Source of the DNA: Bryobacterales bacterium
GTDB taxonomy: Bacteria; Acidobacteriota; Terriglobia; Bryobacterales; UBA6623
NCBI GenBank assembly: GCA_028819575.1
Contig: JAPPLB010000016.1
Location: 1,770-65,769 of the forward strand
DNA length: 64,000 nt
Direction of reading: 5' to 3'
The first letter of the stretch is position 1; the number at the start of each line of letters is the position of its first letter. Position numbers and translations under genes: made by a program. Positions 404 to 28,261 of this stretch are shown here, piece by piece. The notes under the pieces are model-generated. The model saw nothing but the letters and a program-made list of their open reading frames with translations, was not told the DNA's origin and made no database searches.

Positions 404-1957
404 ATGTTGCATCCGACGACACGCCGTAGTTGGCTGAAGTCCGGCGCCGGGGCCGCTGCTCTTCTGGGCGCGGCGGGAGCGGAGCCCGCCGTGGCAGAGG
501 CCGCGGACGAACCGTCTCCCGAGGTCTACACGCGGATCGGCGTCAATCCGTTCATCAACTGCACGGCGACAATCACGCGCAACGGCGGCTCTCTTCTGCT
601 GCCCGAGGTCATCGAGGCCGTCGAGCATGCCTCGCACTATCACGTGCGGCTTGCTTCGCTGATCGAAGCGGCCAGCCAGAGGATCTCCGAGCTGCTGGAG
701 GTTCCCTGGGCGATCGTCTGCTCCGGCGCGGCGGCCGGATTGACCCACGCCACGGCCGCCTGCGTCGCCGGAGCCAACCCCGAGTGGCGTCAGAAACTGC
801 CGATGCTCGACGGCATGAGGAACGAGGTGATCATGCCGAAGTGGTCGCGGAATCAATACGACCACTCGATTCGGATGGTGGGCGTGCGCATTGTCGAGGT
901 GGAGACCGTGGCCCAGGCCCGCGACGCCCTCAGTCCGCACACCGCCATGGTGGCGCTGCTGGGCGACCGTTTCGGAAACGATCGCCCCGGCTTGAGGGAC
1001 TTGGCGCCGCTCGCGAAAGAGCGCGGCATCCCTGTTCTGGTCGATGCCGCGCCTGATTTTCCGGTTATCCCCAACCCCTATCTGAAGGACGGAGCGGACC
1101 TCGTCGTCTATAGCGGCGGCAAGATCCTGCGCGGACCGCAAAGCTCGGGCATCCTGCTCGGCCGCGAAGACCTCGTTCGGGCGGCCGGCGTCAACGCTGC
1201 TCCGAACGGTGGTTTCGGGCGGCCGATGAAAGTGAGCAAGGAGGAGATTGTCGGCCTCGTTACGGCGCTGGAAATCTGGGTGAAAGAGCGCGACATCCGG
1301 CGTGAGTATGAGGAGTGGGAAGGCTGGTACAGCCACATCAGCAACGAGGTTCGCCAGGTTGACGGCGTCGAGGCGCGCGTCCAGGGACCGACCCGTGGCG
1401 GCCCCTTCCCGACATTGCGGATCTCCTGGGATACCGGCAAGATCGGCCTCCGCTCTTCCGACGTGCATCGGCGGCTTCTGGATTCCGAGCCGCCGATCAT
1501 GACCTGGGACTATGGCGACTGGAACTTCCTTGTGATTCGTCCGGCGGCGCTCAAGCCCGGTGAGTACAAGATCATCGGGAAGACGGTCCGGTCGATTCTG
1601 GCGGCCGCTCCGAGCGGGGCCGCCCAACGCGCTCCGGAGAAGCCGGCAACCGATGTTTCGGGGCACTGGGATGTCGAGATCGAGTTCTTGCGGGGACGCG
1701 GGAAACACCAGTTGTTCCTCGAAGCGTCGGAGAAAGGCGTCGTCGGCACGCACATCGGTGCTCGCGCGAGGGGAGACCTGAAAGGGGCGGTCGAAAGCAA
1801 CAAGGTCCGTCTCGAAAGCGTCTTGCCGATGGAGGGTTCGCGGTTGCGCTATCGCTTCTCGGGAGTCGTGCAGGGCGGCGAAATGCAAGGGGACTTGGAT
1901 CTGGGTGAGTATCCGCCGGGGCGCTGGGTGGCGCGACGAAGGGAGGCAAGAGCATGA
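404..1957 (+). CDS. Tat-signal SelA/DgaE-like PLP-dependent enzyme with an extra C-terminal domain of about 110 aa
   Basis: The N-terminus TRRSWLKSGAGAAALLGAAG fits the twin-arginine consensus (S/T-R-R-x-F-L-K). DLVVYSGGKILRGPQSSGILLG resembles the SelA PLP-lysine block (FSGDKLLGGPQAGII). Confidence 0.8.
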   Translation: MLHPTTRRSWLKSGAGAAALLGAAGAEPAVAEAADEPSPEVYTRIGVNPFINCTATITRNGGSLLLPEVIEAVEHASHYHVRLASLIEAASQRISELLEVPWAIVCSGAAAGLTHATAACVAGANPEWRQKLPMLDGMRNEVIMPKWSRNQYDHSIRMVGVRIVEVETVAQARDALSPHTAMVALLGDRFGNDRPGLRDLAPLAKERGIPVLVDAAPDFPVIPNPYLKDGADLVVYSGGKILRGPQSSGILLGREDLVRAAGVNAAPNGGFGRPMKVSKEEIVGLVTALEIWVKERDIRREYEEWEGWYSHISNEVRQVDGVEARVQGPTRGGPFPTLRISWDTGKIGLRSSDVHRRLLDSEPPIMTWDYGDWNFLVIRPAALKPGEYKIIGKTVRSILAAAPSGAAQRAPEKPATDVSGHWDVEIEFLRGRGKHQLFLEASEKGVVGTHIGARARGDLKGAVESNKVRLESVLPMEGSRLRYRFSGVVQGGEMQGDLDLGEYPPGRWVARRREARA

Positions 1958-3507
1958 GCGAACAGACGACACGCCGCGGCTGGCTGCAAGCGAGTGGAGC
2001 AGCGAGTGCAGCGGCGCTTCTCAATAGCGCCGGGGCGGCGGCGGTTTCCGAGATCCACGAAGAGCCGCCGAAAGACGTCTACACGCGGCTCGGAGTCGAG
2101 CCCTTCATCAATTGCACGGCCACGGTGACGAGCAATGGCGGTTCGCGGACCTTGCCCGAGGTGATTCAGGCGATCCGCCACGCCTCGCACTACCACGTGA
2201 ATCTCGACGAGCTTCAGGAAGCCGCCGGGAAACGCATCGCGGAGTTGCTGCAGGTCGAGCACGCCATGGTCTCGTCCGGCGCGGCGGCCGCGCTCACGCA
2301 CGCAACGGCGGGCATCGTGGCCGGCACTGACCCGGAACGCATGCAGCAGCTTCCGGACATGACGGGCCTGAAGAACGAGGTCATCATGCCCAAGTCCTCG
2401 CGCAATGGTTACGACTACGCCGTGCGGATGGTCGGCGTGACCACCGTAGAGGTCAGGACGGCGGAGGAACTGAAGGCGGCGATCAACGACCGCACCGCGA
2501 TGGTCGCCATGCTCGGGGACCGTTTCAGCCCCAAGGTCGAGTTGCCCCTCGAGGAAGTTGCGCCGATTGCCAATAAGGCCGGTATCCCCGTCCTCGTCGA
2601 CTCGGCGGCGGATTTTCTGGTCTCCCCCAATCCCTACGTCGCCCAGGGAGCCGACCTCGTCGCCTACAGCGGCGGCAAGATCTCCCGGGGTCCCCAGGGA
2701 GGAGGATTGCTCGTTGGCAACGAAGAGTTGGTTCGCGCCGCGTTCGCGAACGCGGCCCATCACCATGCTTTCGGGCGGCCGATGAAGGTCAGCAAGGAGG
2801 AGATCATCGGCGTCATGACTGCGGTCGAGACGTTCTTCGGGCGCAGAGACCTGCAGCAGGAGTACCGCGAGTGGGAAGGCTGGTACAGGTACATCACCGA
2901 GCAGATCACGAAAGTGGATGGGGTTTCCACGTACGTAGCCGCACCCTCGCGCGGCGGTCCGTTCCCGGTCCTGATGGTGGAATGGGACCCCGCGAAGATC
3001 GGGTTGACGGCCGGCGAGGTCGGCGCGCTGCTGATGAACGGCGCGCCCCGCATCGCGACCCACGCTGCCGGCGGCGGAACCTCGTTCCGTCTGCGGCCGG
3101 TGGCCATGAAGCCTAACGAGTACCAGATGGTGGCCGAGCGGCTGCACTCGGTTTTTCGGAACGCCCCGAAGCCGAGGCCCGCGCCGGCTATGCGTACGCC
3201 CGTCGACGACATTGCGGGCCGCTGGCGCGTCCGTATGGATTTCGGCGTCGGAAGTGCCGAACACGAGCTCTTTCTCGAAGCCGACGGCAGCGAAGTGACG
3301 GGCGCCCACATCGGTACGATCGCGGAAGGAAGAGTTCGCGGAACCCTGGATGGCGACAAGGTGCGCTTGAGCAGCGCCTTGCCTTTCGAGAGCGTCACTC
3401 TCGGATATCGCTTTGAAGGCGCCCTCAGGGGAGACCGCATGGGAGGGTTGTTGAATCCGGGCGCGCTCCCGGTCGCTACCTGGGAGGCGCGGCGCCACAA
3501 GTATTGA
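1954..3507 (+). CDS. Tat-signal SelA/DgaE-like PLP-dependent enzyme, tandem paralog of 404..1957
   Basis: Same length (517 aa) and collinear with the upstream gene. It has TRRGWLQAS and DLVAYSGGKISRGPQGGGLLVG, and its start overlaps the upstream stop as ATGA. Confidence 0.8.
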   Translation: MSEQTTRRGWLQASGAASAAALLNSAGAAAVSEIHEEPPKDVYTRLGVEPFINCTATVTSNGGSRTLPEVIQAIRHASHYHVNLDELQEAAGKRIAELLQVEHAMVSSGAAAALTHATAGIVAGTDPERMQQLPDMTGLKNEVIMPKSSRNGYDYAVRMVGVTTVEVRTAEELKAAINDRTAMVAMLGDRFSPKVELPLEEVAPIANKAGIPVLVDSAADFLVSPNPYVAQGADLVAYSGGKISRGPQGGGLLVGNEELVRAAFANAAHHHAFGRPMKVSKEEIIGVMTAVETFFGRRDLQQEYREWEGWYRYITEQITKVDGVSTYVAAPSRGGPFPVLMVEWDPAKIGLTAGEVGALLMNGAPRIATHAAGGGTSFRLRPVAMKPNEYQMVAERLHSVFRNAPKPRPAPAMRTPVDDIAGRWRVRMDFGVGSAEHELFLEADGSEVTGAHIGTIAEGRVRGTLDGDKVRLSSALPFESVTLGYRFEGALRGDRMGGLLNPGALPVATWEARRHKY

Positions 3508-12216: not shown

Positions 12217-12735
12217 TCTTTCTCAGGGGGAACAGAGGGAAACAGCTTGCAGGCTTGCTGCAACAGAGTCCGATGATGGTAACACGGAGTGGGACGAACG
12301 CGCCTCCAGGCGGCGCGTGTGCTGTCGGAATCCATGCCGCGGCGTGTGGGGATGAGTGGCGGCGGTTTTGTGTTCCAGAACATACCCGCAGTCGTTTGTA
12401 TTGGTTCGAAGTGACGTGCCAGGCGAGTCGAACCCCAGTAAGGTCCCGCCGGCGCCGCTCTCGCTTTTCCCGGCAACAGGGTCCGGATGTGCCGAGACAA
12501 CCCGGAGCTGCGAGGCAGTACCAGGAGTCTGAGTCAGCGGCGGAGCAACGGTCGCGAACCGCCGTCCGAATGCCCACTTGGCGCACATTCTCGATGCGTT
12601 TCGGAGACGCCGAAGTTTAGCCACAGGCCGTCTGGACAGGTGTTCGGGATTTGATATAGTAGTACGGTCTGTAGAAAGCCTAGTGGCTGAAAACCCCTGT
12701 TTTGCGGGCCAGGTTTCAGCGAAGGAAGGTGTCTG

Positions 12736-16479: not shown

Positions 16480-16523
16480 CGAAGAGGTATAGGGGCGTGG
16501 TTTGAGCTGCGCCCCTTCCACTC

Positions 16524-16739
16524 ATGCAAGTAGCACCGCCATTCAAGGTGATGGGCGCCCGTTGCGATTCTCTGCGGTGGAAGGGAATGTTCATCGCCAC
16601 CGAGGAAGAGAAGAATCCCGAGGATGCGGACGGCAGCAACTTCTGGTGTGTCTACACCCAGAATTGCGTCGGTCCGGACGGCGGCGCCGTGAGCCTGCAG
16701 ACCTGTACGGCGTCACGATCCTGCTACGACCCTTTGTAA
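16524..16739 (+). CDS. Small Cys-containing hypothetical protein
   Basis: 71-aa ORF with RCDSLRWKGMF...FWCVYTQNCVGPDG...CTASRSCY. Coding status is inferred from its position in the operon and non-repetitive composition only. Confidence 0.45.
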   Translation: MQVAPPFKVMGARCDSLRWKGMFIATEEEKNPEDADGSNFWCVYTQNCVGPDGGAVSLQTCTASRSCYDPL

Positions 16740-16829
16740 ATGTTTACCGCAATCCCGCGGCGCCTATAGTAAACTGATGATCGAATCTTGAATCAGCTAG
16801 TACGGACGAGGTTCATAAGGAGGACCACC

Positions 16830-17516
16830 ATGAAAGGCTTTCGTTTTGCGAGCTTGATTGTTCTGTCGTTGATCGTAGCGGCAACGGCCGGCGCGGCCGA
16901 CATTCGGGGCACCTATGTGGAAGCCCGGAACGCGGAAGTATACACGTCGCACTGCTTCGCCAACTCCGAGTTGGGACTCGTCGGCGAGTTGGCGGTGATG
17001 ACTTGGCGGATCGACGAAGGAAGCTGGCACAACGTCGCTCTCGACGGGCTTGGCGTGGCGGCCGTCGTCAAGGCGAGCGGGACGCTGGGTGACCCCTTCA
17101 ACAACCCGTATCCGGCCAAGGCCGTGTTGATTTTCGACGAGCAGGCCTCCGACGCGCAGCGCTCGGCTCTGGAGAGCTTCGCCAGGGCGATGGGCGGTGA
17201 TCTGGTCGAGACGGTGACAAACCGCACGGAGGCGCCGATCTCGATGAGCTTCGAAGGCGGCATGCATTCCAAGCGGGCCACCGTGGAAGTCGGCGACCTG
17301 ATCAAGGTCCGGACGCGCCCGATCCGCGAGAGCGACTCGCTCTGCCACCTCGACGACCTCTATTTCACGCCGCTCGTCAGCCTCGACCATGCGATGCCCG
17401 CCTTCGGCATTCAGACGCGCTTCGACGGCGAAGGGCTCGGTGTTCGCTTTGACGAGCGGAACCGCAGCAACGCCTACATCGGCACGTTCGAGATGAGCGA
17501 GACTGTCAGCGACTAA
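16830..17516 (+). CDS. Secreted hypothetical protein
   Basis: A strong RBS (AAGGAGG) lies 8 nt upstream of the ATG. The signal peptide is MKGFRFASLIVLSLIVAATAGAA. No recognisable catalytic motif was seen; any DUF1326 resemblance is only a vague impression. Confidence 0.7.
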   Translation: MKGFRFASLIVLSLIVAATAGAADIRGTYVEARNAEVYTSHCFANSELGLVGELAVMTWRIDEGSWHNVALDGLGVAAVVKASGTLGDPFNNPYPAKAVLIFDEQASDAQRSALESFARAMGGDLVETVTNRTEAPISMSFEGGMHSKRATVEVGDLIKVRTRPIRESDSLCHLDDLYFTPLVSLDHAMPAFGIQTRFDGEGLGVRFDERNRSNAYIGTFEMSETVSD

Positions 17517-17669
17517 GCACCATCGAACCAACTGCAAGAAGGGTTATGTTTCTGTGACAAGGGGGCCGCTGTGCGGCTCCCTGTTGCTTTTGAGGCTTCA
17601 CACGCAGTTACGCTCGAAGGTAACCTGTGTAATGTTGCGCACGTAGGTTGGGAGAGAGGAGATTTTCAC

Positions 17670-18317
17670 ATGAGAACGAACGCCCTGCGGCCCATTCATA
17701 TCGGATTGGCCCTTCTGATCGCCATTCCGGCGCTGGCGGCGGACTTCTCCGTCGAGCAGGCCGGCGCGCCTCCGGCGGACGGAGTGCCGGAGGCCGTCAC
17801 GACCATGCTGCATGGCGAAGGCGTGCGCGTGAAGGACCCTGACGGCAAGGTCGTCGCCGAATTCTGGGGCCGGAAATCGGCGTTCGAAGGCGATCCAGCC
17901 TCAGGTTTCGGCATTCGGTTTACTACGATTCCGGAAGGCGCACTCGTGGGACTCGTTCAATTCCCCGACAAAGGCTCCGACTATCGCGAGCAGCACATTC
18001 CCCCCGGTATCTATACCCTGCGTTACGGGCTGCACCCCGAAGACGGCGACCACATGGGCGTTGCGCCCAGCAGGGATTTCGTACTGTTGACCCCGGCGGC
18101 AGCCGATACCGAGGCGAGCAGGAACTACGGGTTCGACGACTTGGTCGAGTTGAGCTACAAGGTCGGAAATTCGCACCCGACCGTTGCCCGGGCCGAGATG
18201 GCTGATGGCGACGGCAGCCCGAATATCTGGCAGAACGACCTGGAGCATTGGGTGGTCGACCTGAAGATGGTGGGAGAGCCGATCGGCATCGTCGTATATG
18301 GTCACGCGGACGAGTAG
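17670..18317 (+). CDS. Secreted hypothetical protein
   Basis: RBS GGAGAGAGGAG precedes the ATG. The signal peptide is MRTNALRPIHIGLALLIAIPALAA. No known motif was recognised. Confidence 0.7.
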   Translation: MRTNALRPIHIGLALLIAIPALAADFSVEQAGAPPADGVPEAVTTMLHGEGVRVKDPDGKVVAEFWGRKSAFEGDPASGFGIRFTTIPEGALVGLVQFPDKGSDYREQHIPPGIYTLRYGLHPEDGDHMGVAPSRDFVLLTPAAADTEASRNYGFDDLVELSYKVGNSHPTVARAEMADGDGSPNIWQNDLEHWVVDLKMVGEPIGIVVYGHADE

Positions 18318-18452: not shown

Positions 18453-19535
18453 ATGTCACGGAATCGTTTTTGGATAGCCACTCTTGCGCTCTTTGCAGTC
18501 TGCTCGGCCGCACTGATTTCATGCGGTGTAGAACCCGAGGCTCCGATCTCATCGATGCCGGTTGGCGAAACGATAACCATCGCGGTTCCTCTGGGACTGC
18601 CGCCGGTTCCGGTGCCCGCTGACAACCCTCCGACCGTGGAGACCATCGCGCTGGGACGCCGGCTCTATTTCGACAAGCGCCTTTCCGTTGACGACTCGAT
18701 CTCGTGTGCATCCTGCCATCGGCACGATGCCGGATTCGCGGACCCGGATCAGTTTTCGAACGGCGTTGGCGGCAAGAAGGGCGGCCGGCAGGCGCCGACG
18801 GTAATCAACGCGGCGTATTTCACGACACAGTTCTGGGATGGCCGTTCGCCGAGCCTCGAGAACCAGGCCGAGGGGCCTGTCCAGAACCCGGTCGAGATGG
18901 CGAACACACTTGAGGCTGTAGAGAAGCAACTCGCCGAGGATGCCAGTTACGTCGAGGATTTCGAAAAGGCCTTCGGGTCAGGCGACATCACCTACGAGCG
19001 CATCGGGAAAGCCATCGCCAGCTTCGAGCGTACCGTCTTGAGCGGCAACTCACCGTTTGACCGTTACCTGTACGGCGGTGACGAGGATGCTCTCAGCGAG
19101 TCGGCCAAGCGGGGGTTGGAAGTGTTTCGCGATCCAGCGAAGGGCAATTGCGAAGTCTGCCATGCGATGGAAGAGGAGTATGCGCTCTTCACCGACGACA
19201 AGTTCCATAATCTGGGCGTCGGCGCCAACCTGGACGGGACGTTGCAGGACGTTGGCCGTTACAAAGAGACGGAAAACGACGCTGATCGTGGCGCGTTCAA
19301 GACTCCCGGCCTGCGGAATATCACCGAAACCGCGCCCTACATGCATGACGGCAGCTTGAAGACGCTGAAGGAAGTGATCGACTTCTACATCGGCGCCGGC
19401 AACTCGAATGAATGGCTCGACAAGGATCTCAAGGAACTCGACCACCTCACAGGACAGGAACGCGTGGACTTGGAAGAGTTCTTGAAGTCGCTCACCGCCG
19501 AGATGCCGGCGGACACGGGACCTCCCACGGACTAA
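18453..19535 (+). CDS. Di-haem cytochrome c peroxidase (CCP/MauG family), probable lipoprotein
   Basis: Two CxxCH haem motifs (CASCH, CEVCH) and the conserved PYMHDGS block. The N-terminus LFAVCSAALISCG is lipobox-like. Confidence 0.85.
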   Translation: MSRNRFWIATLALFAVCSAALISCGVEPEAPISSMPVGETITIAVPLGLPPVPVPADNPPTVETIALGRRLYFDKRLSVDDSISCASCHRHDAGFADPDQFSNGVGGKKGGRQAPTVINAAYFTTQFWDGRSPSLENQAEGPVQNPVEMANTLEAVEKQLAEDASYVEDFEKAFGSGDITYERIGKAIASFERTVLSGNSPFDRYLYGGDEDALSESAKRGLEVFRDPAKGNCEVCHAMEEEYALFTDDKFHNLGVGANLDGTLQDVGRYKETENDADRGAFKTPGLRNITETAPYMHDGSLKTLKEVIDFYIGAGNSNEWLDKDLKELDHLTGQERVDLEEFLKSLTAEMPADTGPPTD

Positions 19536-20827
19536 CGCCAGGGATCGACCCGGTTTTTTTCATCAGCGTAGAAGGTTTCCCAATCTTCGCCGGCGCGGCC
19601 GTTCAGGTCCCACTCCACATGGCCACCCTTGATCGTCAACTCGGCGGTCAGGAGTTTGTTGCCTTTGAGCGTGATGCGCCGGACGTCGAGAAAACCGAAG
19701 TCCCCCTCCTCGAGCCGCAGCACGGTCACGTCGGCGATGGCGCCTTCGCTGAGGTGGCCGAGTTCGGTGCGCTTGATGACCTCGGCTGGTTTCCAGGTCG
19801 ACATGCGGATGACCTCCTCGAGCGATGAGCCGAGATTGAGGACCTTCGACATGACGTTGGTCATGTCCTTCATGCCGGCATTCATGCTGCCGGTGTGGAG
19901 ATCGGTCGAGATGATGTCGGGCGGGAAGCCCTGCTCGTAAGCGGGAACGGCCACGCGCCAGGTGAAGCTGCCGCCTCCATGGCCGATGTCGAATATGATG
20001 CCGCGCTCGCGGCCCTGGAACATCGACGGATTGATCTTGCCCTCATCGGTCAGCTCAACACGCAACCCCGAGTACATGTGCGTATAGATGTCGCCGGGGC
20101 GGAGCTTTTCGAGGTAGAGTTCCCCGATCGGACGTTCCTTGGGATGGTTGGCTCCGAAGTCGACCATGACCGGAATATCCGCGAGGCCGGCCGCCTCGAC
20201 GGCTCGCTCGACGGAAACCCATTCGGGCCCGGAATAGTGCGCGGTCTTGACGCCTACGATGATGTCGGGGTATTTCTTGGCCATCGCGGCGATTTTTTCG
20301 GGCTCCATGTCTTCGGGGTTGTCCTCGCCTTCAGGTCCCATACCGCCCCCGGCGACGTTCAGCATGACCAGCACTCGCGTCCTGGAGCGGTCGATGACGC
20401 GGTCCTTGAAGTCCTCGAAGTTGCGATGCCCGGAGCTGCCGACATCGACGAGCGTCGTGCAGCCGGATCGAAAGCTGAAGTGATCGGGGTAGACACTGCT
20501 GTCTCCGGTAAGCACGCGGGGGATTCCGGTTCCGGCGTAGACGTGAGCGTGCAGATCGATCAGGCCGGGTGTGACGTACAGGCCGCTGACATCGACGACC
20601 TTTCCGGCGCGGTCCTCGGGCAGGCTTTCGCGGACGGCGACGATCTTTCCCTCATCAATCGCGACATCCATCGGGGCGCTGATCTCGTTCTTGGGATCGA
20701 TGACGTGCCCTCCCTTGAGAAGCATGCCGTACGACTCGGGTAGAGCCTCGCCACATCCGTAGCCGGCTAGCAGGGCGACCACAGTAAGGAGGCAAACGCA
20801 GGCTTGTTTCTTCATGGGGTTGAACAT
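19532..20827 (-). CDS. Exported amidohydrolase-superfamily metallohydrolase, paralog 1 (subtype I)
   Basis: LIDLHAHVY (HxH), VGVKTAHY (Lys), YTHMY, FDIGHGGGSF, STDLH and an N-terminal hydrophobic signal. An alternative start is the ATG at 20815. Confidence 0.85.
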   Translation of the reverse strand: MFNPMKKQACVCLLTVVALLAGYGCGEALPESYGMLLKGGHVIDPKNEISAPMDVAIDEGKIVAVRESLPEDRAGKVVDVSGLYVTPGLIDLHAHVYAGTGIPRVLTGDSSVYPDHFSFRSGCTTLVDVGSSGHRNFEDFKDRVIDRSRTRVLVMLNVAGGGMGPEGEDNPEDMEPEKIAAMAKKYPDIIVGVKTAHYSGPEWVSVERAVEAAGLADIPVMVDFGANHPKERPIGELYLEKLRPGDIYTHMYSGLRVELTDEGKINPSMFQGRERGIIFDIGHGGGSFTWRVAVPAYEQGFPPDIISTDLHTGSMNAGMKDMTNVMSKVLNLGSSLEEVIRMSTWKPAEVIKRTELGHLSEGAIADVTVLRLEEGDFGFLDVRRITLKGNKLLTAELTIKGGHVEWDLNGRAGEDWETFYADEKNRVDPWR

Positions 20828-20861
20828 CCTTCCGTAATGCGTTGCGGTGGATCGGATATCG

Positions 20862-22103
20862 CTACATCAAGCCGTAAGCCTCGCGATAATCGGTGGCGGT
20901 TCGGCCGTTGAGGTCCCAGGCGACTTGGCCGTCGCGGATCGTCATTTCGCAGACCAGCAGCTTCGTGGCCATGAGACGGGCTCTCTGGGCGTCGACGAGG
21001 CCGAAACGGCCGTGATCAAGCCGCAGGACGGCGATATCGGCGACGGCTCCTTCGCTGAGGTGGCCGAGCCCGCTGCGTTTCATTTGTTGCGCCGGGTTCC
21101 AGGTGGACATCTTGATTACGTCATAAAGCGGCACGCCCTGGCTGAGGATCTTCGACATGACATTGGTCATGTCCTTCATGCCGGCGTTCATGCTTCCGAT
21201 GTGCAGGTCGGTCGAGATCGAGTCGGGCCAAAAGCCTTGACGGATCGCGGGGACGGCGTTTTTCCATGAGAAGCTGCCGCCGCCGTGGCCCACATCGAAC
21301 TTGACGCCGCGCTTGCGTGCCTGAGCGAGGTAAGGCAGCAGCTTGTGCTTGTCGTCCACGTACGGCACTTGTCGTTTGTACCCGTGCGTGTAGATGTCAC
21401 CGGGCCGCAGGTGGTCGAGAACGAGTTCCTGGAAGGGTCGGGCTTCATGAAACGTACCGAAGTCGATCATGACGGGCAGGTCGGTCAGTTTGCCGGCCTC
21501 GACGGCTTTGTCGACGGAGGTCCACTCGGGCCCGTGGAAGTGCGCCGATTTGATGCCCACGATGGTGTCGGGGTATTCCTTAGCTCGTTTCGCGGTGGCT
21601 TTGGGGTCCATGTCAGACGTATCCTGCTCGATATTGTTGCGGCCGGCCATGCCCTTTCCCACGATGTTGAGCAGCGCGAGGACGCGGGTCTTCGAAATGT
21701 CGATGACACGGTTCTTGAAGTCAGGGAAGTTGGTCCAACCCGAGCTGCCCGCATCGACGACCGTGGTCACGCCGCTGCGGAAGGTAAAACCGTCGGGGTA
21801 GACACTCCGGTCGCCGGTGTAGGAATTCTTGTTCCCCGTACCGGTATAGACGTGAACGTGGATGTCAACGAGCCCCGGCGTCACGTAGAAACCGGAGACG
21901 TCAACGGTCATCTTGGCATCCGTGGGGGATATGCTTTCAGCGACACGGGCAATCTTGTTTCCCGAGACGGCTACGTCCATCGGGGCGTTGATGCCGTTGC
22001 GAGGGTCGATGACGTTGCCGCCCTTCAGCAACAGGTCGTATGTCTGGGACATCAGCGAACACGGGATCAGCAGGAGTCCGATCAAGAGCGTGGAAAGTTT
22101 CAT
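20862..22103 (-). CDS. Exported amidohydrolase-superfamily metallohydrolase, paralog 2 (subtype II)
   Basis: Signal peptide MKLSTLLIGLLLIPCSLMSQ. Motifs VDIHVHVY, VGIKSAHF, FDVGHGGGSF, STDLH. Confidence 0.85.
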   Translation of the reverse strand: MKLSTLLIGLLLIPCSLMSQTYDLLLKGGNVIDPRNGINAPMDVAVSGNKIARVAESISPTDAKMTVDVSGFYVTPGLVDIHVHVYTGTGNKNSYTGDRSVYPDGFTFRSGVTTVVDAGSSGWTNFPDFKNRVIDISKTRVLALLNIVGKGMAGRNNIEQDTSDMDPKATAKRAKEYPDTIVGIKSAHFHGPEWTSVDKAVEAGKLTDLPVMIDFGTFHEARPFQELVLDHLRPGDIYTHGYKRQVPYVDDKHKLLPYLAQARKRGVKFDVGHGGGSFSWKNAVPAIRQGFWPDSISTDLHIGSMNAGMKDMTNVMSKILSQGVPLYDVIKMSTWNPAQQMKRSGLGHLSEGAVADIAVLRLDHGRFGLVDAQRARLMATKLLVCEMTIRDGQVAWDLNGRTATDYREAYGLM

Positions 22104-22164
22104 GCGTGCATCCTTTCTGTCTATCAGTGCCTATCGTGTCGGCGTGTCGCCGGTGCATTGACGG

Positions 22165-23430
22165 TTACGGACGGCGGCCTCGCCTGCGTTGCCTGCTTCG
22201 GTAGAAGTCCGTCCAGTCCAGGCTGGCGCGGGCATTGACGTCCCAGGCGATGCGGCCACCGTAGATGGTCATCTCGGCGGCGATTTTCTTGTCGCCCTCC
22301 AAGCGGCCGTTGCGCACGTCGAGAAAACCAAACTCGCCCCGGTCGACGCGCAGTACGGCGACGTCGGCAGGAGCTCCGACGCTGAGATGTCCGAATTCGA
22401 GCCGCTTGATCTGTTGCGCGGGATTCCAGGTCGACATCTTGACTACGTCGTAAAGCGAGATACCCCGGTTGAGGATCTTCGACATCACGTTGGTCATGTC
22501 TTTCATGCCGCGATTCATGCTGCCGATGTGGAGGTCGGTCGAGATCGAGTCGGGAACCCAGCCCTGATCGATGGCCGGAACGGCCTGCTTCCAGAGGAAG
22601 CTGCCGCCGCCATGGCCCACGTCGAACTTGACGCCGCGCTTGCGGGCCTCGTGAAGATAGGGGCGCAGCTTGCCGTTCGCGTCGAGCATGGGAACGCGGC
22701 CCAGATACATGTGGGTATACATGTCACCGGGGCGAAGGCGCTTGGTGACGAGTTCCTCGAAGGGCCGCTCGTCGGTGAATGTACCGAAGTCGACCATGAC
22801 GGGAATGTTCGCCAACCTGCCGGCTTCGACGGCGCGGTCGACTGCGATCCAATCCGGCGCACTGTAATGGGCGGTTTTTATCCCGACGATCGTGTCGGGA
22901 TATTTCCCGGCCATCTCGGCGGTCGCTTTGGCGTCCATGTCGTCGGTGTTCTGCTCGATCTCACCGCCCCCCATACCTTTGCCGACGATATTCAGCATGG
23001 CGAGAATTCGCGTCCGCTGACGGTCGATGATTCGGTCCTTGAAGTCCTCGAAATTGCGCCATCCCGAGCTGCCCACGTCGACGACCGTCGTCACGCCGCT
23101 GCGGGAGCAGTGGCCGTCTGGATAAACGCTGTTGTCTCCTGAATAGGCGCCGCGCATCCCCGTGCCGGCGTAGACGTGGACGTGGATGTCGACCAGGCCT
23201 GGCGTCACGTAGAAGCCGGAGACATCGATGCTCCGGCGGGCTTCGACGGGATCGATCGCAGGAGCAACCCGTGCGACTTTTCCGTTTTTCATGGCGACGT
23301 CCATCGTTGTGTTCAGGTGGTTCTTTGGATCGATAACGTGGCCGCCTTTGAGGAGCAGATCGTAAGGGGCGTCTGCATGGAGAGCGCCGGTGGCGATCAT
23401 GAGCGCGATGATGAAGTGTATGGGTTTCAT
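22165..23430 (-). CDS. Exported amidohydrolase-superfamily metallohydrolase, paralog 3 (subtype II)
   Basis: Signal peptide MKPIHFIIALMIATGALHA. Motifs VDIHVHVY, VGIKTAHY, FDVGHGGGSF, STDLH. Confidence 0.85.
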   Translation of the reverse strand: MKPIHFIIALMIATGALHADAPYDLLLKGGHVIDPKNHLNTTMDVAMKNGKVARVAPAIDPVEARRSIDVSGFYVTPGLVDIHVHVYAGTGMRGAYSGDNSVYPDGHCSRSGVTTVVDVGSSGWRNFEDFKDRIIDRQRTRILAMLNIVGKGMGGGEIEQNTDDMDAKATAEMAGKYPDTIVGIKTAHYSAPDWIAVDRAVEAGRLANIPVMVDFGTFTDERPFEELVTKRLRPGDMYTHMYLGRVPMLDANGKLRPYLHEARKRGVKFDVGHGGGSFLWKQAVPAIDQGWVPDSISTDLHIGSMNRGMKDMTNVMSKILNRGISLYDVVKMSTWNPAQQIKRLEFGHLSVGAPADVAVLRVDRGEFGFLDVRNGRLEGDKKIAAEMTIYGGRIAWDVNARASLDWTDFYRSRQRRRGRRP

Positions 23431-23458
23431 GGTGATGTCTCCCGCTTTGTCGTCTGTC

Positions 23459-24715
23459 CTATCGCCGTGGGCGTCGCCGCTCCCTCACATCCTTCCAGTG
23501 GACGCCGGCTCGTCCGTTCAAGTCCCACCGGACCTCTCCTTCTCGTAAGGTCAACTCGCATTCGAGCAGCTTGTTTCCCGTGAGGCGGGCTCCCCGCGAA
23601 TCGGCGAACCCGTAGACGCCGCGCTCATCACGGAAGACGGCCACATCGGCCACGGCGCCTTCGCTCAGGTGTCCGAGGTCGGTTCGCTTGATTTGATGGG
23701 CGGGGTTGCTGGTGGACATTTTGATGACGTCGTAGAGCGGAACATCGAGGTTGTAGATCTTCGAGACGGTGCGGATCATCGTCTGCATGCCGCGGTTCAT
23801 GCTGCCGATGTGCAGATCGGTGGAAATGGAGTCGGGCGGAAAGCCTTGTCGCAACGCTGCTACCGCGACGTTCCAGCGGAAGCTGCCGCCTCCATGGCCG
23901 ATGTCGAAGTAGACGCCGCGCTGGCGGCCCGCGAACATGCCCGGGTTGATCTTGCCGGATTCGGAGATCAACTCATCTCGGTTGCCGGAGAAGCAATGCG
24001 TGTAGATGTCGCCCGGCCGTAGTTTCTTGGTCAGCAGATCGGCGAGGGGGCGCGTTTCGGGATGATTGCTTCCGAAGTCGATCATGACAGGAATATCCGC
24101 CAACCGGCCTGCTTCAACGGCGCGCTCGACGGAAGTCCAATCGGGGTGTCGATAGTGTGCGCTCTTGACCCCAACGATCATATCCGGATATTTTTTCGCC
24201 ATCCTGGCCGTCGCCTCGGGGTCCATCTCTCGGATGTCATGCTCTTCATCGCCGCTGGTCATGCCTGCGCTGATGATATTGAGCATCGCGAGAACGCGCG
24301 TCTGGGAGCGGTCGATGACGCGGTCCTTGAAATCCTCGAACTGTTCCCAGCCGGAACTGCCGACGTCGACGACGGTGGTGACGCCCGAGCGCAAGGTAAA
24401 ACCGTCCGGGTAGACGCTGTTGTCGCCGTTGTAGCCGCGCCGCGCGCCGGTGCCGGCGTAGACATGCACGTGGATATCGACCAGACCGGGGGTTACGTAG
24501 AGCCCGGAGACATCGACGACTTTCTCGGCCGCGGATTCGGGGATGTTGACGGCGACCCGGGCGATTTTCCCATCCTTGATGCCAACGTCCTGGGCGGAGT
24601 TGATTTCGTTGAGAGGGTCGATTACGTGACCACCCTTGAGCAGCATGTCGAACTGGGCTTGTGCAAGGGTGGGTCCCGCCAACAACAAAGCGACTGCCAG
24701 GGTCAGGGTTTTCAT
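23459..24715 (-). CDS. Exported amidohydrolase-superfamily metallohydrolase, paralog 4 (subtype I)
   Basis: The start is set at the internal ATG, giving MKTLTLAVALLLAGPTLAQA and avoiding overlap with paralog 5. Motifs VDIHVHVY, VGVKSAHY, FDIGHGGGSF, STDLH. Confidence 0.8.
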   Translation of the reverse strand: MKTLTLAVALLLAGPTLAQAQFDMLLKGGHVIDPLNEINSAQDVGIKDGKIARVAVNIPESAAEKVVDVSGLYVTPGLVDIHVHVYAGTGARRGYNGDNSVYPDGFTLRSGVTTVVDVGSSGWEQFEDFKDRVIDRSQTRVLAMLNIISAGMTSGDEEHDIREMDPEATARMAKKYPDMIVGVKSAHYRHPDWTSVERAVEAGRLADIPVMIDFGSNHPETRPLADLLTKKLRPGDIYTHCFSGNRDELISESGKINPGMFAGRQRGVYFDIGHGGGSFRWNVAVAALRQGFPPDSISTDLHIGSMNRGMQTMIRTVSKIYNLDVPLYDVIKMSTSNPAHQIKRTDLGHLSEGAVADVAVFRDERGVYGFADSRGARLTGNKLLECELTLREGEVRWDLNGRAGVHWKDVRERRRPRR

Positions 24716-24762
24716 TTGCGATACGCCTCCAAGTAGCTTCGGTGTGCGCCGATCGAGTGAAC

Positions 24763-26007
24763 CTACCGGCCGCTCGTCTGAACCTCTTCCCACGGCGTGC
24801 CGGCGCGCCCGTTGAGATCCCACATGACTTTGCCGTCACGCAGCGTAAGTTCACAGGTGAGCAGTTGATCGCCCTCATAGCGTGCGTTCCTGATGTCAAG
24901 GAACCCGAATTTCCCGTTGTCCAGGCGAAAGACGGCAACGTCCGCGACGGCGCCGATGCTGAGGTGTCCCAGCTCAGTGCGCTTGATCTGCTTCGCTGGT
25001 TCCCAGGTGGACTTGCGCACCACATCCTTGAGCGGCAGGCCGAGCGCCAGGAACTTCGACATGACATTGGTCATGTTCTTCATGCCGCCGTTCATGCTGC
25101 GGAAGTGCAGGTCGGTAGAGATGGAATCGGCGATGAAGCCGTTTTTCACGGACGGCACGGCCTGGAACCACCAGAAGCTGCCTGCGCCGTGGCCCACATC
25201 GAACTTGACTCCCCGTTTCTGTGCTTCAAAGAGATAAGGGCGAGGTTTGCCTTGCTCATCGAGCAGGGGCACCCGGCCGAGATAAGTATGCGTATACATG
25301 TCGCCGGGCCGCAGTTTCTTCGTCACGAGTTCTTCAAAGGGTCGCTCCTTGAGAAAAGAGCCGAAATCGACCATAACCGGGATGTCGGCCTTCGTGCCCG
25401 CTTCAACCGCGCGCTCAACGGGAATCCATTCCGTGCTTCTGTAGTGAGCAGTTTTCACGCCGACGATGGTTTCGGGGTATTGCATGGCCATCTTGGCGGT
25501 GGCAGCGGCATCCATGTCGTCGAGATTCTGCTCGATCGGGTCTCCGCCCATGCCTCTGCCGACAATATTGAGCATGGCGAGGACTCGGGTGCGGGCGCGG
25601 TCGATGACACGTTGCTTGAAGTCGGGGAAGTTGCGCCATCCGGAACTGCCGACATCCACCATCGTGGTTACGCCTGAGCGGAACGAGAAGCCGTCAGGAT
25701 AGACGCTGTTGTCGCCGGAAAAAGCATTCTTCATGCCCGTGCCGGCGTAGACATGCACGTGGATATCGACCAGCCCGGGCGTGACGTACAGGCCGCTGAT
25801 GTCAACCACCTTCGCGGCTCGGGAAGGATCGATGCTGTCGGCGACCTCTGCGATACGGCCTTCCTGGATAGCGACATCCTTCGCCTCATCGATCTCGTTC
25901 TTGGCGTCGACCAGGTGACCGCCCTTGAGCAGCAGGTCATATTGAGCGAAGAGCGAGCCTGTCAGCAGGCAGACAAGGAACAATGGCCGCAACAGAAGAT
26001 TCGTCAT
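24763..26007 (-). CDS. Exported amidohydrolase-superfamily metallohydrolase, paralog 5 (subtype II)
   Basis: Signal peptide MTNLLLRPLFLVCLLTGSLFA. Motifs VDIHVHVY, VGVKTAHY, FDVGHGAGSF, STDLH. Confidence 0.85.
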   Translation of the reverse strand: MTNLLLRPLFLVCLLTGSLFAQYDLLLKGGHLVDAKNEIDEAKDVAIQEGRIAEVADSIDPSRAAKVVDISGLYVTPGLVDIHVHVYAGTGMKNAFSGDNSVYPDGFSFRSGVTTMVDVGSSGWRNFPDFKQRVIDRARTRVLAMLNIVGRGMGGDPIEQNLDDMDAAATAKMAMQYPETIVGVKTAHYRSTEWIPVERAVEAGTKADIPVMVDFGSFLKERPFEELVTKKLRPGDMYTHTYLGRVPLLDEQGKPRPYLFEAQKRGVKFDVGHGAGSFWWFQAVPSVKNGFIADSISTDLHFRSMNGGMKNMTNVMSKFLALGLPLKDVVRKSTWEPAKQIKRTELGHLSIGAVADVAVFRLDNGKFGFLDIRNARYEGDQLLTCELTLRDGKVMWDLNGRAGTPWEEVQTSGR

Positions 26008-26187
26008 ATTGCTTCAACTCCCTCGTGGTGGAGCCTCATGATCGCAACCTGACCGACAGCAACGTATACCATTCTCGAAGTTTGCGGGACGGAGCAGGTA
26101 TGTATAATGAGACGCTTGATCGGGGCACCTTGCACCTGCACACACCTTCCCGGCGGACCCCAACATCCACCTCAAACCGGAGCCTTC

Positions 26188-26988
26188 ATGGACTTCCAGA
26201 AGATACTCCTACGCCGCGTCGGCAAAGCGATTCACGACTATAACATGATCCGCGAGGGGGACCGGGTCGCGATCGGAGTTTCGGGTGGGAAGGATTCCCT
26301 GGCTCTGCTGGACGCCCTGTTGTCATTACGCAAGAGATCTCCGGTTCGCTATAGTCTGCAGGCGTTCACCGTCGAGCAGGGCAAGTTCGTGAGGCCCATT
26401 GCGCCGCTCGGCGAGCACATGAAGGCGAGGGGCGTGCCGTGGACCTACTATCGGGACGAACCGTCCTTCCGTCTTCTCGAAGAGCAGCCGGAGCATGGGT
26501 GCGACATCTGCAGCCGCTATCGGCGGCGGGCTGTCTATGACATCGCGTCGCAATTGGGCGCCAATGTCGTTGCGCTGGGCCATACGCAAGACGATTTTTG
26601 TGAGGCGCTGCTTCGCAACACGCTTTACACGGGTCGTCTGAGTGCTCTGCCGGCGCTGACGAATTCTCGTTCGGGTGATTTTCGGCTTATCCGCCCTCTC
26701 GTGTATGTCTCCGAGGAAGTCACGCAGGGCTACGCCGAGCGGCAGTCCATACCAGTCACGCCGTGCGTGTGCTCCCACAAGACGGGCACCGTGCGCGAAA
26801 GGCTGCGCGGCTTCCTCACGGAGACGAAGAAGGAGACCCCGCACGTTCTCGAGAACATTCTTTCCGCCATGCAGCGCATTGACACTCCCCGGCTGCTCGA
26901 CCGCCGTTTCCTCGATGACAACACCGATAGATTCGAGGCAATCCCCACCTCCGATCCATTGCCGGTTTTGGTTGAAGAAACCCTGTAA
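26188..26988 (+). CDS. ttcA: PP-loop ATPase, tRNA 2-thiocytidine biosynthesis TtcA family
   Basis: SGGKDS PP-loop, CDICSRYRR and CVCSHK cysteine motifs. The start is set at the ATG giving MDFQKILLRRVGKAIHDY. Confidence 0.75.
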   Translation: MDFQKILLRRVGKAIHDYNMIREGDRVAIGVSGGKDSLALLDALLSLRKRSPVRYSLQAFTVEQGKFVRPIAPLGEHMKARGVPWTYYRDEPSFRLLEEQPEHGCDICSRYRRRAVYDIASQLGANVVALGHTQDDFCEALLRNTLYTGRLSALPALTNSRSGDFRLIRPLVYVSEEVTQGYAERQSIPVTPCVCSHKTGTVRERLRGFLTETKKETPHVLENILSAMQRIDTPRLLDRRFLDDNTDRFEAIPTSDPLPVLVEETL

Positions 26989-28224: not shown

Positions 28225-28261
28225 GCGCCGGCCCGGTGTTAGAATCCGGTTGGGAGCTCCT

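What the first reader, a model, noticed from the sequence alone, without database searches (positions are those of the whole stretch)
19532..26007. Five tandem co-directional paralogs of an exported binuclear-metal amidohydrolase
Seen in sequence:
- Five ORFs of 413-431 aa lie on the minus strand, separated by only 34, 61, 28 and 47 bp.
- Each has an N-terminal hydrophobic signal sequence.
- Each retains the full ligand set: HxH in (L/V)D(L/I)H(A/V)HVY, Lys in VG(V/I)K(T/S)AH, His in YTH, His in FD(I/V)GHG and Asp in STDLH.
- They fall into two visibly distinct subtypes that are interleaved along the array. Subtype I (19532, 23459) has FG(A/S)NHP and GKINP. Subtype II (20862, 22165, 24763) has DFG(T/S)F...ERPF and GVKFDVGHG.

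Established: this ligand pattern defines subtype-I amidohydrolase-superfamily enzymes (the dihydroorotase/deacetylase-like clade), which are normally cytoplasmic and single-copy.

Inference: this is a periplasmic or secreted battery of related but diverged hydrolases. They may act on a family of amide substrates (N-acyl amino acids, dipeptides, amino-sugar or cell-wall fragments), and subtypes I and II may form hetero-oligomers. No regulator or transporter lies inside the array.
Basis: partly seen in the sequence, partly recalled or inferred. Interest (0 to 1): 0.65.

Follow-up and report, generated by a model that had tools for sequence, protein, structure and literature searches.

The report
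Five exported deacylase paralogs in tandem
A sponge-associated acidobacterium carries a conserved, transcribed operon of five diverged copies of a two-metal "deacetylase" (often mislabelled dihydroorotase). All five carry export signals, so they probably remove acyl groups from small acidic compounds outside the cytoplasm, but the substrates are unknown.

Summary
Five co-directional minus-strand genes (19532-26007) encode 413-431 aa proteins that are 59-68% identical to each other. All five score above NCBI's curated cutoff for the COG3964 "amidohydrolase/deacetylase family metallohydrolase" and keep the HxH/Lys/His/His/Asp ligand set.

The array is not an assembly artefact. It recurs in independent short- and long-read assemblies at uniform single-copy depth. 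It is conserved in the same gene order in Bryobacterales genomes whose orthologs are 69-96% identical. All five orthogroups are under purifying selection (omega 0.06-0.25), and sponge metatranscriptome contigs cover every gene and every intergenic junction.

Four proteins have Sec-type signal peptides. The fifth (A1) has a lipobox and is probably a lipoprotein.

These are not dihydroorotases. Export is the norm for this acidobacterial clade (98 of 104 homologs). Single-copy exported homologs often sit beside TAT-exported DgaE-like PLP ammonia lyases and RidA, and two such lyases lie in this window.

Best reading: a periplasmic battery of diverged deacylases acting on 2-acyl(amino/oxy) carboxylates. 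Substrates and any hetero-oligomer remain untested. Interest is moderate.

The parts
24763..26007 (-). A5, first gene of the operon: 414-aa COG3964 amidohydrolase/deacetylase, subtype II. Sec-type signal peptide at about residues 1-21 (LFA|QYD; DNA 25945-26007).
   Evidence: ORF. NF006689 424.4 bits vs cutoff 371. Signal features. Orthogroup bootstrap 100%. Omega 0.085-0.16.
23459..24715 (-). A4: 418-aa COG3964 amidohydrolase/deacetylase, subtype I. Signal peptide at about residues 1-20 (AQA|QFD; DNA 24656-24715). The mechanical ORF extends to a GTG at 24823, but that start would overlap A5.
   Evidence: 427.7 bits; called as 418 aa in other assemblies.
22165..23430 (-). A3: 421-aa COG3964 amidohydrolase/deacetylase, subtype II. 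Signal peptide at about residues 1-19 (LHA|DAP; DNA 23374-23430).
   Evidence: (421 bits).
20862..22103 (-). A2: 413-aa COG3964 amidohydrolase/deacetylase, subtype II. Signal peptide at about residues 1-19 or 1-21 (LMS|QTY; DNA about 22041-22103). This copy was modelled.
   Evidence: (428.9 bits). AF2 model pLDDT 89.8, pTM 0.90. Foldseek target-normalised TM 0.83-0.91 to the full-length chains of 8WZY, 8JE0, 2ICS and 2OGJ.
19532..20827 (-). A1, last gene: 427/431-aa COG3964 amidohydrolase/deacetylase, subtype I, probable lipoprotein. Lipobox A-G-Y-G-C with Cys21 counted from the MKKQ start at 20815, followed by a Gly/Pro-rich tether (CGEALPESYG). Its stop overlaps the convergent cytochrome c peroxidase gene by 4 bp.
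   Evidence: (405.9 bits). Orthologs carry canonical lipoboxes: L080 LLAGC, L008/L009 LTAC, L005 VSGC.
26008..26106 (.). 99-bp divergent intergenic region between A5 and the TtcA-like gene (26107-26988). It is the presumed promoter region of the five-gene operon.
   Evidence: Gene layout. No sigma-70-like match was found here. Each gene has its own purine-rich SD-like motif 7-13 nt upstream.
404..3507 (+). Candidate functional partners outside the operon: two tandem DgaE/SelA-like PLP enzymes (404-1957 and 1954-3507). Both have twin-arginine signals.
   Evidence: Homologs lie within 6 kb of single-copy family members, often directly beside them, in 26 loci.

Best explanation
**What it is**
The locus is one operon of five anciently duplicated, individually maintained COG3964 metallo-deacylases. 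The host is a sponge-associated Bryobacterales (Acidobacteriota) bacterium.

**How it most likely works**
- Each protein is exported through Sec. Four are released into the periplasm and one (A1) is lipid-anchored.
- Each has a complete binuclear-metal site (HxH, Lys, His, His, Asp).
- Each therefore most likely works as its own hydrolase, removing an acyl (acetyl-type) group from the 2-position of a small carboxylate. Candidate substrates are 2-N-acyl-amino acids or amino-sugar acids, and 2-O-acyl hydroxy acids.
- The five copies differ at positions just after the ligand-bearing beta-strands, which suggests different substrate preferences, i.e. a specificity battery.
- The deacylated products would then be handled by DgaE-like PLP ammonia lyases (two TAT-exported copies lie in this window) and by 2-keto-3-deoxy-acid enzymes.

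**Shown here**
- Family membership, ligand set and fold.
- Export-signal features.
- Conservation of the array, purifying selection and transcription.
- The gene-neighbourhood association.

**Inferred**
- Cleavage of the signals and final localisation.
- The chemistry, the substrates and the coupling to the lyases.
For: **Family and fold**
- All five exceed the NF006689 cutoff (406-429 bits vs 371) over nearly the whole profile.
- The best PDB sequence hits are 2OGJ, 8JE0, 8WZY and 2ICS, with the ligand motifs aligned.
- The AF2 model has pLDDT 89.8.
- Its Foldseek target-normalised TM-score is 0.83-0.91 to the full-length chains of those four entries. DHOases reach about 0.6.
- 2OGJ is reported as a deacetylase without DHOase activity (PMC4987910, citing Ornelas 2013).

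**Export**
- Signal features are present in all five, and the domain starts 1-5 residues after the predicted cleavage site.
- 98 of 104 homologs share these features.
- The A1 orthogroup carries a lipobox.

**Maintained individually**
- The same A5-A4-A3-A2-A1 order is found in genomes whose orthologs are 69-96% identical.
- Orthogroup bootstraps are 95-100%.
- Omega is 0.06-0.25, and dS between paralogs is about 0.9-1.6, i.e. near saturation.

**Expressed**
- Metatranscriptome contigs cover all five genes and all four junctions.

**Pocket divergence**
- Orthogroup-specific fixed residues lie at 87, 123, 186, 189, 218 and 246.
- These positions lie 1-6 residues after the ligand-bearing or neighbouring barrel strands/motifs.

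**Pathway context**
- Among the other loci, family members lie within 6 kb of a TAT-signal DgaE-like gene in 26 loci, RidA in 22, DUF362 in 18 and a TonB-type OMP in 20.
- DgaE-like, AH and RidA often sit directly side by side on the same strand.
- Poribacteria copies sit beside MR_MLE and HpcH aldolase genes.
- In Enterococcus the family neighbours DgaE and a KDGP aldolase (PMC11934601).
- One AH-SelA-like fusion protein exists.
Against: - No enzyme of this exported clade has been assayed, and identity to any solved relative is only 29-32%.
- No SignalP or LipoP run was possible. The window's A1 lipobox is shifted (AGYGC) relative to its orthologs.
- The array loci have no DgaE-like or RidA gene within 6 kb. 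The window's two DgaE-like genes lie 16 kb away, separated by housekeeping genes. No RidA was found in the window.
- The AH-SelA-like fusion is a single sequence on one contig.
- The RNA contigs are unstranded, and some also span convergent or divergent gene boundaries. DNA carry-over therefore cannot be excluded.
- The pocket argument rests on strand topology, not on measured 3D distances.
Confidence: 0.55

Rival explanations
1. The five proteins assemble into one hetero-oligomeric periplasmic enzyme, with subtype I and subtype II subunits and the lipoprotein A1 tethering the complex to a membrane. They would not be five independent enzymes.
For: - All five genes are retained together, in a fixed order, in every array-bearing genome.
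- Intergenic gaps are short and RNA contigs span the junctions.
- Tandem pairs of different clades recur elsewhere: L010 has an A2-like gene plus a lipoprotein A1-like gene, and L040, L045 and L053 also carry mixed pairs.
- Relatives crystallise with 4-6 chains per entry.
Against: - Most of the other surveyed loci carry a single copy, so the fold works alone.
- Arrays of 2 and 3 genes exist, in L010 and L072.
- All five keep the full ligand set under strong purifying selection, which a scaffold subunit would not need.
Confidence: 0.15
2. The enzymes are exported hydrolases with a different amidohydrolase-superfamily chemistry. Examples are cyclic amide/hydantoin, isoaspartyl or other dipeptide, or lactone hydrolysis, acting on host (sponge) or environmental compounds. 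In that case the DgaE/RidA link is irrelevant to the array.
For: - The same ligand set serves hydantoinases, isoaspartyl dipeptidases and others, and weak N-terminal hits to these families appear.
- The array loci lack an adjacent DgaE-like or RidA gene.
- Identity to characterised relatives is low.
Against: - Full-length similarity and fold match only the COG3964 group.
- Other families match only the N-terminal composite domain.
- The neighbourhood association with DgaE-like lyases spans all three clades of the family tree and also Firmicutes.
Confidence: 0.2
3. The copies are functionally redundant, a simple gene-dosage amplification.
For: Five co-transcribed genes belong to one family.
Against: - The copies are only 59-68% identical, and dS between them is about 0.9-1.6, i.e. 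near saturation.
- The five orthogroups predate the divergence of genomes whose orthologs are as little as 69-80% identical.
- Residues fixed within each orthogroup lie near the active-site strands.
Confidence: 0.05
4. The genes are cytoplasmic dihydroorotase (pyrC) paralogs, or the array is an assembly artefact.
For: Some sources label homologs "dihydroorotase".
Against: - DHOase models score far below their cutoffs.
- Signal peptides are present.
- 2OGJ lacks DHOase activity.
- Depth is uniform, and the array recurs in independent assemblies including long-read ones.
Confidence: 0.02

Closest known systems
Atu3266 (PDB 2OGJ) and Oant2987, COG3964 deacetylases (Ornelas et al. 2013, PMID 23214420)
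   Same: - Same family-level fold (target-normalised TM 0.83-0.87 for the full-length chains).
- Same HxH/Lys/His/His/Asp motifs in register.
- Both are mis-annotated as dihydroorotase.
   Different: - Only about 29-30% identical.
- Atu3266 has no signal peptide and is encoded as a single gene.
- As I recall the paper (it could not be read here), its best substrate is acetyl-(R)-mandelate and N-acetyl-D-serine is a weak one. No physiological substrate is known.
EF_0837 family (PDB 2ICS; TIGR03583) in DgaE / KDGP-aldolase / PTS clusters of Firmicutes
   Same: - Same fold (target-normalised TM 0.91).
- Same type of neighbour, a DgaE-family PLP ammonia lyase, as seen next to the acidobacterial single-copy genes.
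   Different: - The window proteins score 204-230 bits against a cutoff of 432, so they are not members of that subfamily.
- EF_0837 is cytoplasmic and linked to a PTS.
- Here the proteins and their lyase partners carry Sec or TAT signals.
8WZY and 8JE0, "A novel amidohydrolase" (2024 PDB entries)
   Same: Best structural matches (E 1e-35 to 1e-37, target-normalised TM 0.84-0.90).
   Different: - 29-32% identical.
- No paper describing them was found in the held library, so their function is unknown to me.
OngB, GlcNAc1A (N-acetyl-D-glucosaminate) deacetylase of the oxidative chitin pathway (PMC12017989, PMC9537276)
   Same: It is a working analogy. An amidohydrolase-superfamily deacetylase acts on a 2-acetamido aldonic acid. 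As I recall PMC9537276 (not read here), an ammonia lyase then yields a 2-keto-3-deoxy acid.
   Different: - It belongs to a different family: D-aminoacylase-like and mononuclear.
- D-aminoacylases match the window proteins only over the N-terminal ~65 residues.
- As I recall PMC9537276 (not read here), it is cytoplasmic.
Dihydroorotase (PyrC) and other subtype-I amidohydrolase-superfamily enzymes
   Same: Same superfamily and the same binuclear ligand pattern.
   Different: - TM about 0.6 and 15-18% identity.
- All DHOase models score far below their cutoffs.

Membership tests
COG3964 / NCBIfam NF006689 (PRK09237) amidohydrolase/deacetylase family metallohydrolase | Whole-protein score above the curated cutoff (371 bits), with near full-length profile coverage | tested here: met
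   Scores are 405.9, 428.9, 421.0, 427.7 and 424.4 bits. Profile positions 2-3 to 370-374 of 383 are covered.
COG3964 / NCBIfam NF006689 | Binuclear-metal ligand set: HxH after strand 1, a bridging Lys, two His and an Asp | tested here: met
   The residues are invariant in the five copies and in 58 homologs: H82, H84, K185, H240, H273 and D299 in A2 numbering. They align with the same motifs of 2OGJ. Metal content and Lys carboxylation were not measured.
COG3964 / NCBIfam NF006689 | Fold: distorted (beta/alpha)8 barrel plus a composite beta domain, like 2OGJ and 2ICS | tested here: met
   AF2 pLDDT is 89.8. Foldseek target-normalised TM is 0.83-0.91 to the full-length chains of 2OGJ, 2ICS, 8WZY and 8JE0, with a clear gap to the next families at about 0.6.
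COG3964 / NCBIfam NF006689 | Deacetylase activity on 2-acyl carboxylates and no DHOase or adenine deaminase activity | not testable with these tools
   This needs purified protein.
Dihydroorotase (PyrC; e.g. NF006839, NF006845, NF005791) | Score above the curated cutoff over the full length | tested here: not met
   Scores are at most 62.5 bits against cutoffs of 442-728. Matches are limited to roughly residues 24-164, mostly the first ~60-110 residues of the domain.
EF_0837 subfamily (TIGR03583) | Score above the cutoff of 432 bits | tested here: not met
   Scores are 204-230 bits.
PRK12394 metallo-dependent hydrolase (NF009060) | Score above the cutoff of 442 bits | tested here: not met
   Scores are 235-257 bits.
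Sec-exported proteins (SPase I signal peptides: A2-A5) | Positively charged n-region, hydrophobic h-region, and small residues at -3/-1 before the mature domain | tested here: met
   A heuristic gives 1 K/R, a 10-aa core with mean hydropathy 2.3-2.9, no D/E, and AXA-like sites 1-5 residues before the domain start. The profile alignment starts at residue 21-23. The feature is conserved in 98 of 104 homologs and absent from the Poribacteria copies. SignalP was not available, and cleavage is unproven.
Bacterial lipoproteins (SPase II; A1) | Lipobox [LVI..][ASTG..][GAS]-C at the end of the h-region | tested here: inconclusive
   Orthologs carry canonical lipoboxes (LLAGC, LTAC, VSGC). The window copy reads LLAGYGC. 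This fits the permissive PROSITE-style pattern but is not canonical at positions -3 and -2.

The most novel reading that the evidence does not exclude
Acidobacteria run an extracytoplasmic pathway of deacylase, then PLP ammonia lyase, then RidA. It uses a Sec-exported COG3964 enzyme, a TAT-exported DgaE-like lyase and a TAT-exported RidA, often next to a TonB-type outer-membrane transporter. The pathway would strip and deaminate N-acyl-2-amino (sugar) acids in the periplasm. The five-gene array in sponge symbionts would be a specificity-diversified front end of that pathway, possibly working on host-matrix or oxidised amino-sugar products.
Probability: 0.25. Interest if true: 0.65.

Novelty: new variant of a known kind. 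Interest (0 to 1): 0.42.

Why it matters
- COG3964 is a family of about a thousand 50%-identity clusters. Its members are still widely mislabelled as dihydroorotases, and no physiological substrate is known.
- This locus shows that, in Acidobacteriota, the family is mainly an exported one.
- In widespread sponge symbionts it has expanded into a conserved, expressed five-enzyme operon.
- The repeated neighbourhood with TAT-exported DgaE-like lyases and RidA gives a concrete, testable substrate class: 2-acylamino or 2-acyloxy acids.
- It also points to PLP-dependent deamination in the periplasm, which would be unusual.
- If confirmed, this would help explain how these symbionts harvest carbon and nitrogen from host-derived or environmental compounds.

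Tried and rejected
- **Key paper not available.** Ornelas et al. 2013 could not be read by DOI or PMC id. Only its citation and a one-line summary in PMC4987910 were available.
- **Literature searches with no useful result.**
  - PDB codes 8JE0, 8WZY and 2ICS.
  - Atu3266.
  - Sponge Acidobacteria amidohydrolases.
  - The NCBI family name, which returned only gene-list mentions.
- **Promoter and terminator scan of 19000-26500.** Counts were no higher than in shuffled sequence, and nothing was found in the A5 upstream region.
- **Rfam scan of the window.** Only a tRNA was found.
- **Strict specificity-position analysis.** It gave only 22 positions, and no model coordinates were available, so 3D clustering around the metal site could not be measured.
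- **Bootstrap.** The first run timed out and was redone with a faster distance method. Branching order within subtype II stayed unresolved: A2+A3 48% and A3+A5 46%.
- **Fusion proteins.** AH-SelA-like, AH-DUF386 and nucleoside hydrolase-AH fusions were found. The two that were looked up (AH-SelA-like and AH-DUF386) are single sequences, so they count only as weak support.
- **Hypotheses rejected.**
  - Mis-assembly.
  - A dihydroorotase role.
  - Recent amplification.

Full report
**1. What is in the sequence**

Five co-directional minus-strand ORFs occupy 19532-26007. I number them in transcription order.
- A5: 24763-26007, 414 aa.
- A4: 23459-24715, 418 aa. The mechanical ORF runs to a GTG at 24823, but other assemblies call the ATG start.
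- A3: 22165-23430, 421 aa.
- A2: 20862-22103, 413 aa.
- A1: 19532-20827, 431 aa, or 427 aa from the MKKQ start at 20815.

The gaps are 47, 28, 61 and 34 bp. Each gene has a purine-rich SD-like motif 7-13 nt upstream of its start. The stop of A1 overlaps a convergent cytochrome c peroxidase gene. A5 is divergent from a TtcA-like gene, followed by a Na/Pi cotransporter gene. The operon therefore holds these five genes and nothing else.

There is one small deviation: A2 reads FHEARPF.

**2. Family**

All five proteins pass NCBI's curated cutoff for NF006689 (PRK09237), "amidohydrolase/deacetylase family metallohydrolase". They score 406-429 bits against a cutoff of 371, over almost the whole profile.

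Three related sets of models fail.
- EF_0837 (TIGR03583): 204-230 bits against a cutoff of 432.
- PRK12394: 235-257 bits against a cutoff of 442.
- Every dihydroorotase model: at most 62.5 bits against cutoffs of 442-728, and N-terminal stretches only.

The best solved relatives by sequence are 2OGJ, 8JE0, 8WZY and 2ICS, and the HxH, Lys, His, His and Asp motifs align in register.

An AlphaFold2 model of A2 has pLDDT 89.8 and pTM 0.90. It matches the full-length chains of those same four entries at target-normalised TM 0.83-0.91 and 29-32% identity. Dihydroorotases, allantoinases and isoaspartyl dipeptidases reach only about 0.6.

2OGJ is Atu3266. [quoted passage not shown] 2013. That paper could not be read here. 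From my own recollection, its best substrate was acetyl-(R)-mandelate, other O-acetyl alpha-hydroxy acids were next, and N-acetyl-D-serine was a weak hit.

**3. Is the array real, old and used?**

*Assembly.*
- DNA identity between copies is only 65-80%, and there are no long exact repeats.
- In sponge-metagenome run X1, one contig covers 19000-24479 with no mismatch at depth 58.3.
- The adjoining X1 contigs have depths of 57.2 and 56.8.
- Three other runs show the same structure.
- The identical five-gene arrangement is present in independent assemblies, including a 5.4 Mb contig.

*Conservation.*
- The array is also present in more distant Bryobacterales: L080, L008 and L009, and the L005-7 lineage with an 8.96 Mb contig. 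Their orthologs are 69-96% identical to the window's.
- The order is always A5-A4-A3-A2-A1.
- L072 has three genes (A5, A4, A3). L010 has a pair: an A2-like gene plus a lipoprotein A1-like gene.

*Phylogeny.*
- Bootstrapped neighbour-joining supports the five orthogroups at 95-100%.
- Subtype I (A1+A4) has 91% support and subtype II (A2+A3+A5) has 100%.
- The order within subtype II is unresolved.

*Selection.*
- Omega between orthologs is 0.06-0.16, and 0.25 at most.
- dS between paralogs is about 0.9-1.6, i.e. near saturation.

*Transcription.*
- Contigs from sponge and marine metatranscriptomes cover all five genes.
- They also span all four intergenic junctions: 20829-21081, 22012-22214, 23299-23553 and 24467-24867.
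- These contigs are unstranded. Some also cross convergent or divergent gene boundaries, so DNA carry-over cannot be excluded.

**4. Export**

No signal-peptide predictor was available, so I scored the classical features directly.
- A2-A5 each have one K/R residue.
- A 10-residue core of mean hydropathy 2.3-2.9 follows, with no acidic residue.
- An AXA-like site (LMS|Q, LHA|D, AQA|Q, LFA|Q) lies 1-5 residues before the conserved YDLLLKGG strand.
- The family profile also begins at that strand, at residues 21-23.

A1 has a stronger core (3.1), followed by A-G-Y-G-C and a Gly/Pro-rich tether. Its orthologs carry canonical lipoboxes: LLAGC, LTAC and VSGC. A1 is therefore a probable lipoprotein, although the window's own lipobox is shifted by two residues.

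Across 104 non-redundant homologs from the collected loci, 98 have such an N-terminus. The exceptions are the five Poribacteria copies, which start MGETTQNS.. directly at the domain, and one borderline case. Export is thus the rule in this mostly acidobacterial clade. It is not a peculiarity of the array.

**5. Context and likely chemistry**

The array loci themselves give little direct information. Their shared neighbours are the TtcA-like and Na/Pi cotransporter genes. An HpcH aldolase gene lies nearby in L008, L009 and L072.

The other loci (L008-L087), mostly single-copy, are more informative. I clustered the ORFs within 6 kb of each family member. The recurrent neighbours are:
- a roughly 460-570 aa DgaE/SelA-like PLP enzyme with a twin-arginine signal (26 loci);
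- a TAT-signal RidA (22 loci);
- a TAT-signal DUF362 protein (18 loci);
- a CarboxypepD_reg + OMP_b-brl_4 TonB-type outer-membrane protein (20 loci);
- enolase-superfamily (MR_MLE) and HpcH aldolase genes, in fewer loci.

A co-directional run of DgaE-like, AH and RidA genes is frequent (for example L018, L050, L068 and L074).

The window itself holds two tandem DgaE-like genes, at 404-1957 and 1954-3507. Both have clear twin-arginine motifs (TTRRSWLKSG and TTRRGWLQAS). They lie 16 kb from the array, beyond housekeeping genes.

The same pairing of this amidohydrolase family with a DgaE-family lyase and a KDGP aldolase occurs in Enterococcus (PMC11934601). One metagenomic protein fuses the two domains, but it is a single sequence.

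NCBIfam's DgaE equivalog model is named D-glucosaminate-6-phosphate ammonia lyase. From general knowledge, DgaE-type enzymes remove ammonia from 2-amino aldonates to give 2-keto-3-deoxy acids, and RidA clears the enamine/imine intermediates. Taken together with the reported deacetylase activity of Atu3266, the simplest reading is as follows. The family removes an acyl group from the 2-position of a carboxylate (2-acylamino or 2-acyloxy acids). A lyase or dehydratase and an aldolase then act on the product.

The OngB pathway for N-acetyl-D-glucosaminate from oxidised chitin (PMC12017989, PMC9537276) is a working analogy. However, OngB belongs to a different, mononuclear D-aminoacylase-like family.

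**6. Why five?**

Residues fixed within each orthogroup but different between orthogroups include positions 87, 123, 186, 189, 218 and 246 (A2 numbering).
- Position 87 lies just after the HxH.
- Position 123 lies after the VVD.GSSG strand; it is H in A1 and W in the other four.
- Positions 186 and 189 lie after the Lys.
- Position 218 is the DFG-x-N/F subtype signature.
- Position 246 lies after the YTH His.

These positions lie 1-6 residues after the strands or motifs that carry or flank the ligands, on the face of the barrel where the active site opens. The loop after the HxH also has low model confidence, which is consistent with a mobile substrate loop.

This fits substrate specialisation: a battery with one membrane-tethered member. 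It is an argument from topology, not from measured 3D distances.

A hetero-oligomer is not excluded. The facts in its favour are:
- strict co-retention of all five genes;
- co-transcription;
- recurrent mixed-clade pairs in other genomes.

The facts against it are:
- the abundance of single-copy genes;
- the 2- and 3-gene arrays;
- the intact, selected ligand sets in all five.

**7. Comparison and novelty**

The proteins are members of a known family (COG3964 / NF006689). About 957 clusters at 50% identity match at E <= 1e-30. Three things appear to be undescribed in the literature I could search:
- the exported nature of the acidobacterial clade;
- its linkage to TAT-exported DgaE-like and RidA proteins;
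- the conserved five-paralog operon with a lipoprotein member in sponge-associated Bryobacterales.

I rate this a new variant of a known kind, of moderate interest. It is well documented as a genomic feature, but its biochemistry is unknown.

**8. Verdict**

  - Correct: an exported battery with two subtypes.
  - Wrong: "normally cytoplasmic and single-copy", and the dihydroorotase flavour.
  - Untested: the hetero-oligomer.
- Confidence in the periplasmic deacylase-battery model is about 0.55.

Noticed in passing
window 404-1957 and 1954-3507 (+): Two tandem paralogs of a DgaE/SelA-like PLP enzyme, overlapping by 4 bp. They score 144-163 bits on TIGR01437, below the cutoff of 385. Both have twin-arginine export signals and an extra C-terminal domain of about 115 aa with no Pfam match. 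An exported PLP lyase would be unusual.
   Followed up: partly
L024, L034, L042, L044, L058 (Candidatus Poribacteria chromosomes), match at about 10000-11200: Poribacteria, another sponge-symbiont phylum, carry a signal-less copy of the family. It nests inside the acidobacterial subtype-II clade near A3 and sits next to MR_MLE and HpcH aldolase genes. This may reflect inter-phylum transfer among sponge symbionts with loss of the export signal.
   Followed up: partly
L040, L045, L053 (about 8400-18100) and L010 (8692-11251): Tandem pairs of family members from different clades recur in other Acidobacteria. L010 pairs an A2-like gene with a lipoprotein A1-like gene, the same adjacency as A2-A1 in the array.
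   Followed up: partly
window 28250-28840 (+): A Uma2-family endonuclease gene lies between the Na/Pi cotransporter gene and the AP_endonuc_2 gene. A Uma2 gene also lies there in L001 but not in L002-L004, which are otherwise syntenic. It appears to be a strain-variable insertion.
   Followed up: no
window 28829-29776 (-) and 30059-31714 (+): A xylose-isomerase-like TIM-barrel protein (AP_endonuc_2, weakly IolE-like) with an arginine-containing, signal-like N-terminus (not analysed further). Next to it is a 551-aa CehA/McbA-family metallohydrolase with a hydrophobic N-terminus. These may be further exported catabolic enzymes.
   Followed up: no
window 6471-10985 (+): A 1504-aa protein with a trypsin-like protease domain and PPC (pre-peptidase C-terminal) domains.
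   Followed up: no
window 12736-16479 (+) and 16788-18317 (+): A three-subunit xanthine-dehydrogenase-family molybdoenzyme (Fer2_2, MoCoBD and FAD_binding_5 subunits). It is followed by a DUF1326 protein and an unannotated ORF (17571-18317) with a hydrophobic N-terminal stretch, both conserved in L001-L004.
   Followed up: no
P0121, P0125, P0148 (metagenomic proteins): Fusion proteins join the family domain to other domains: an inosine-uridine nucleoside hydrolase (P0121), a DUF386/YhcH domain (P0125) and a SelA/DgaE-like PLP domain (P0148). P0125 and P0148 are single sequences, so the fusions may be gene-calling artefacts.
   Followed up: partly
L055 (labelled Arcobacter sp.) and L077 (labelled Acidimicrobiia): These contigs carry typical acidobacterial-type exported family members. 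The taxonomic labels look out of place, so the contigs may be mis-binned.
   Followed up: no
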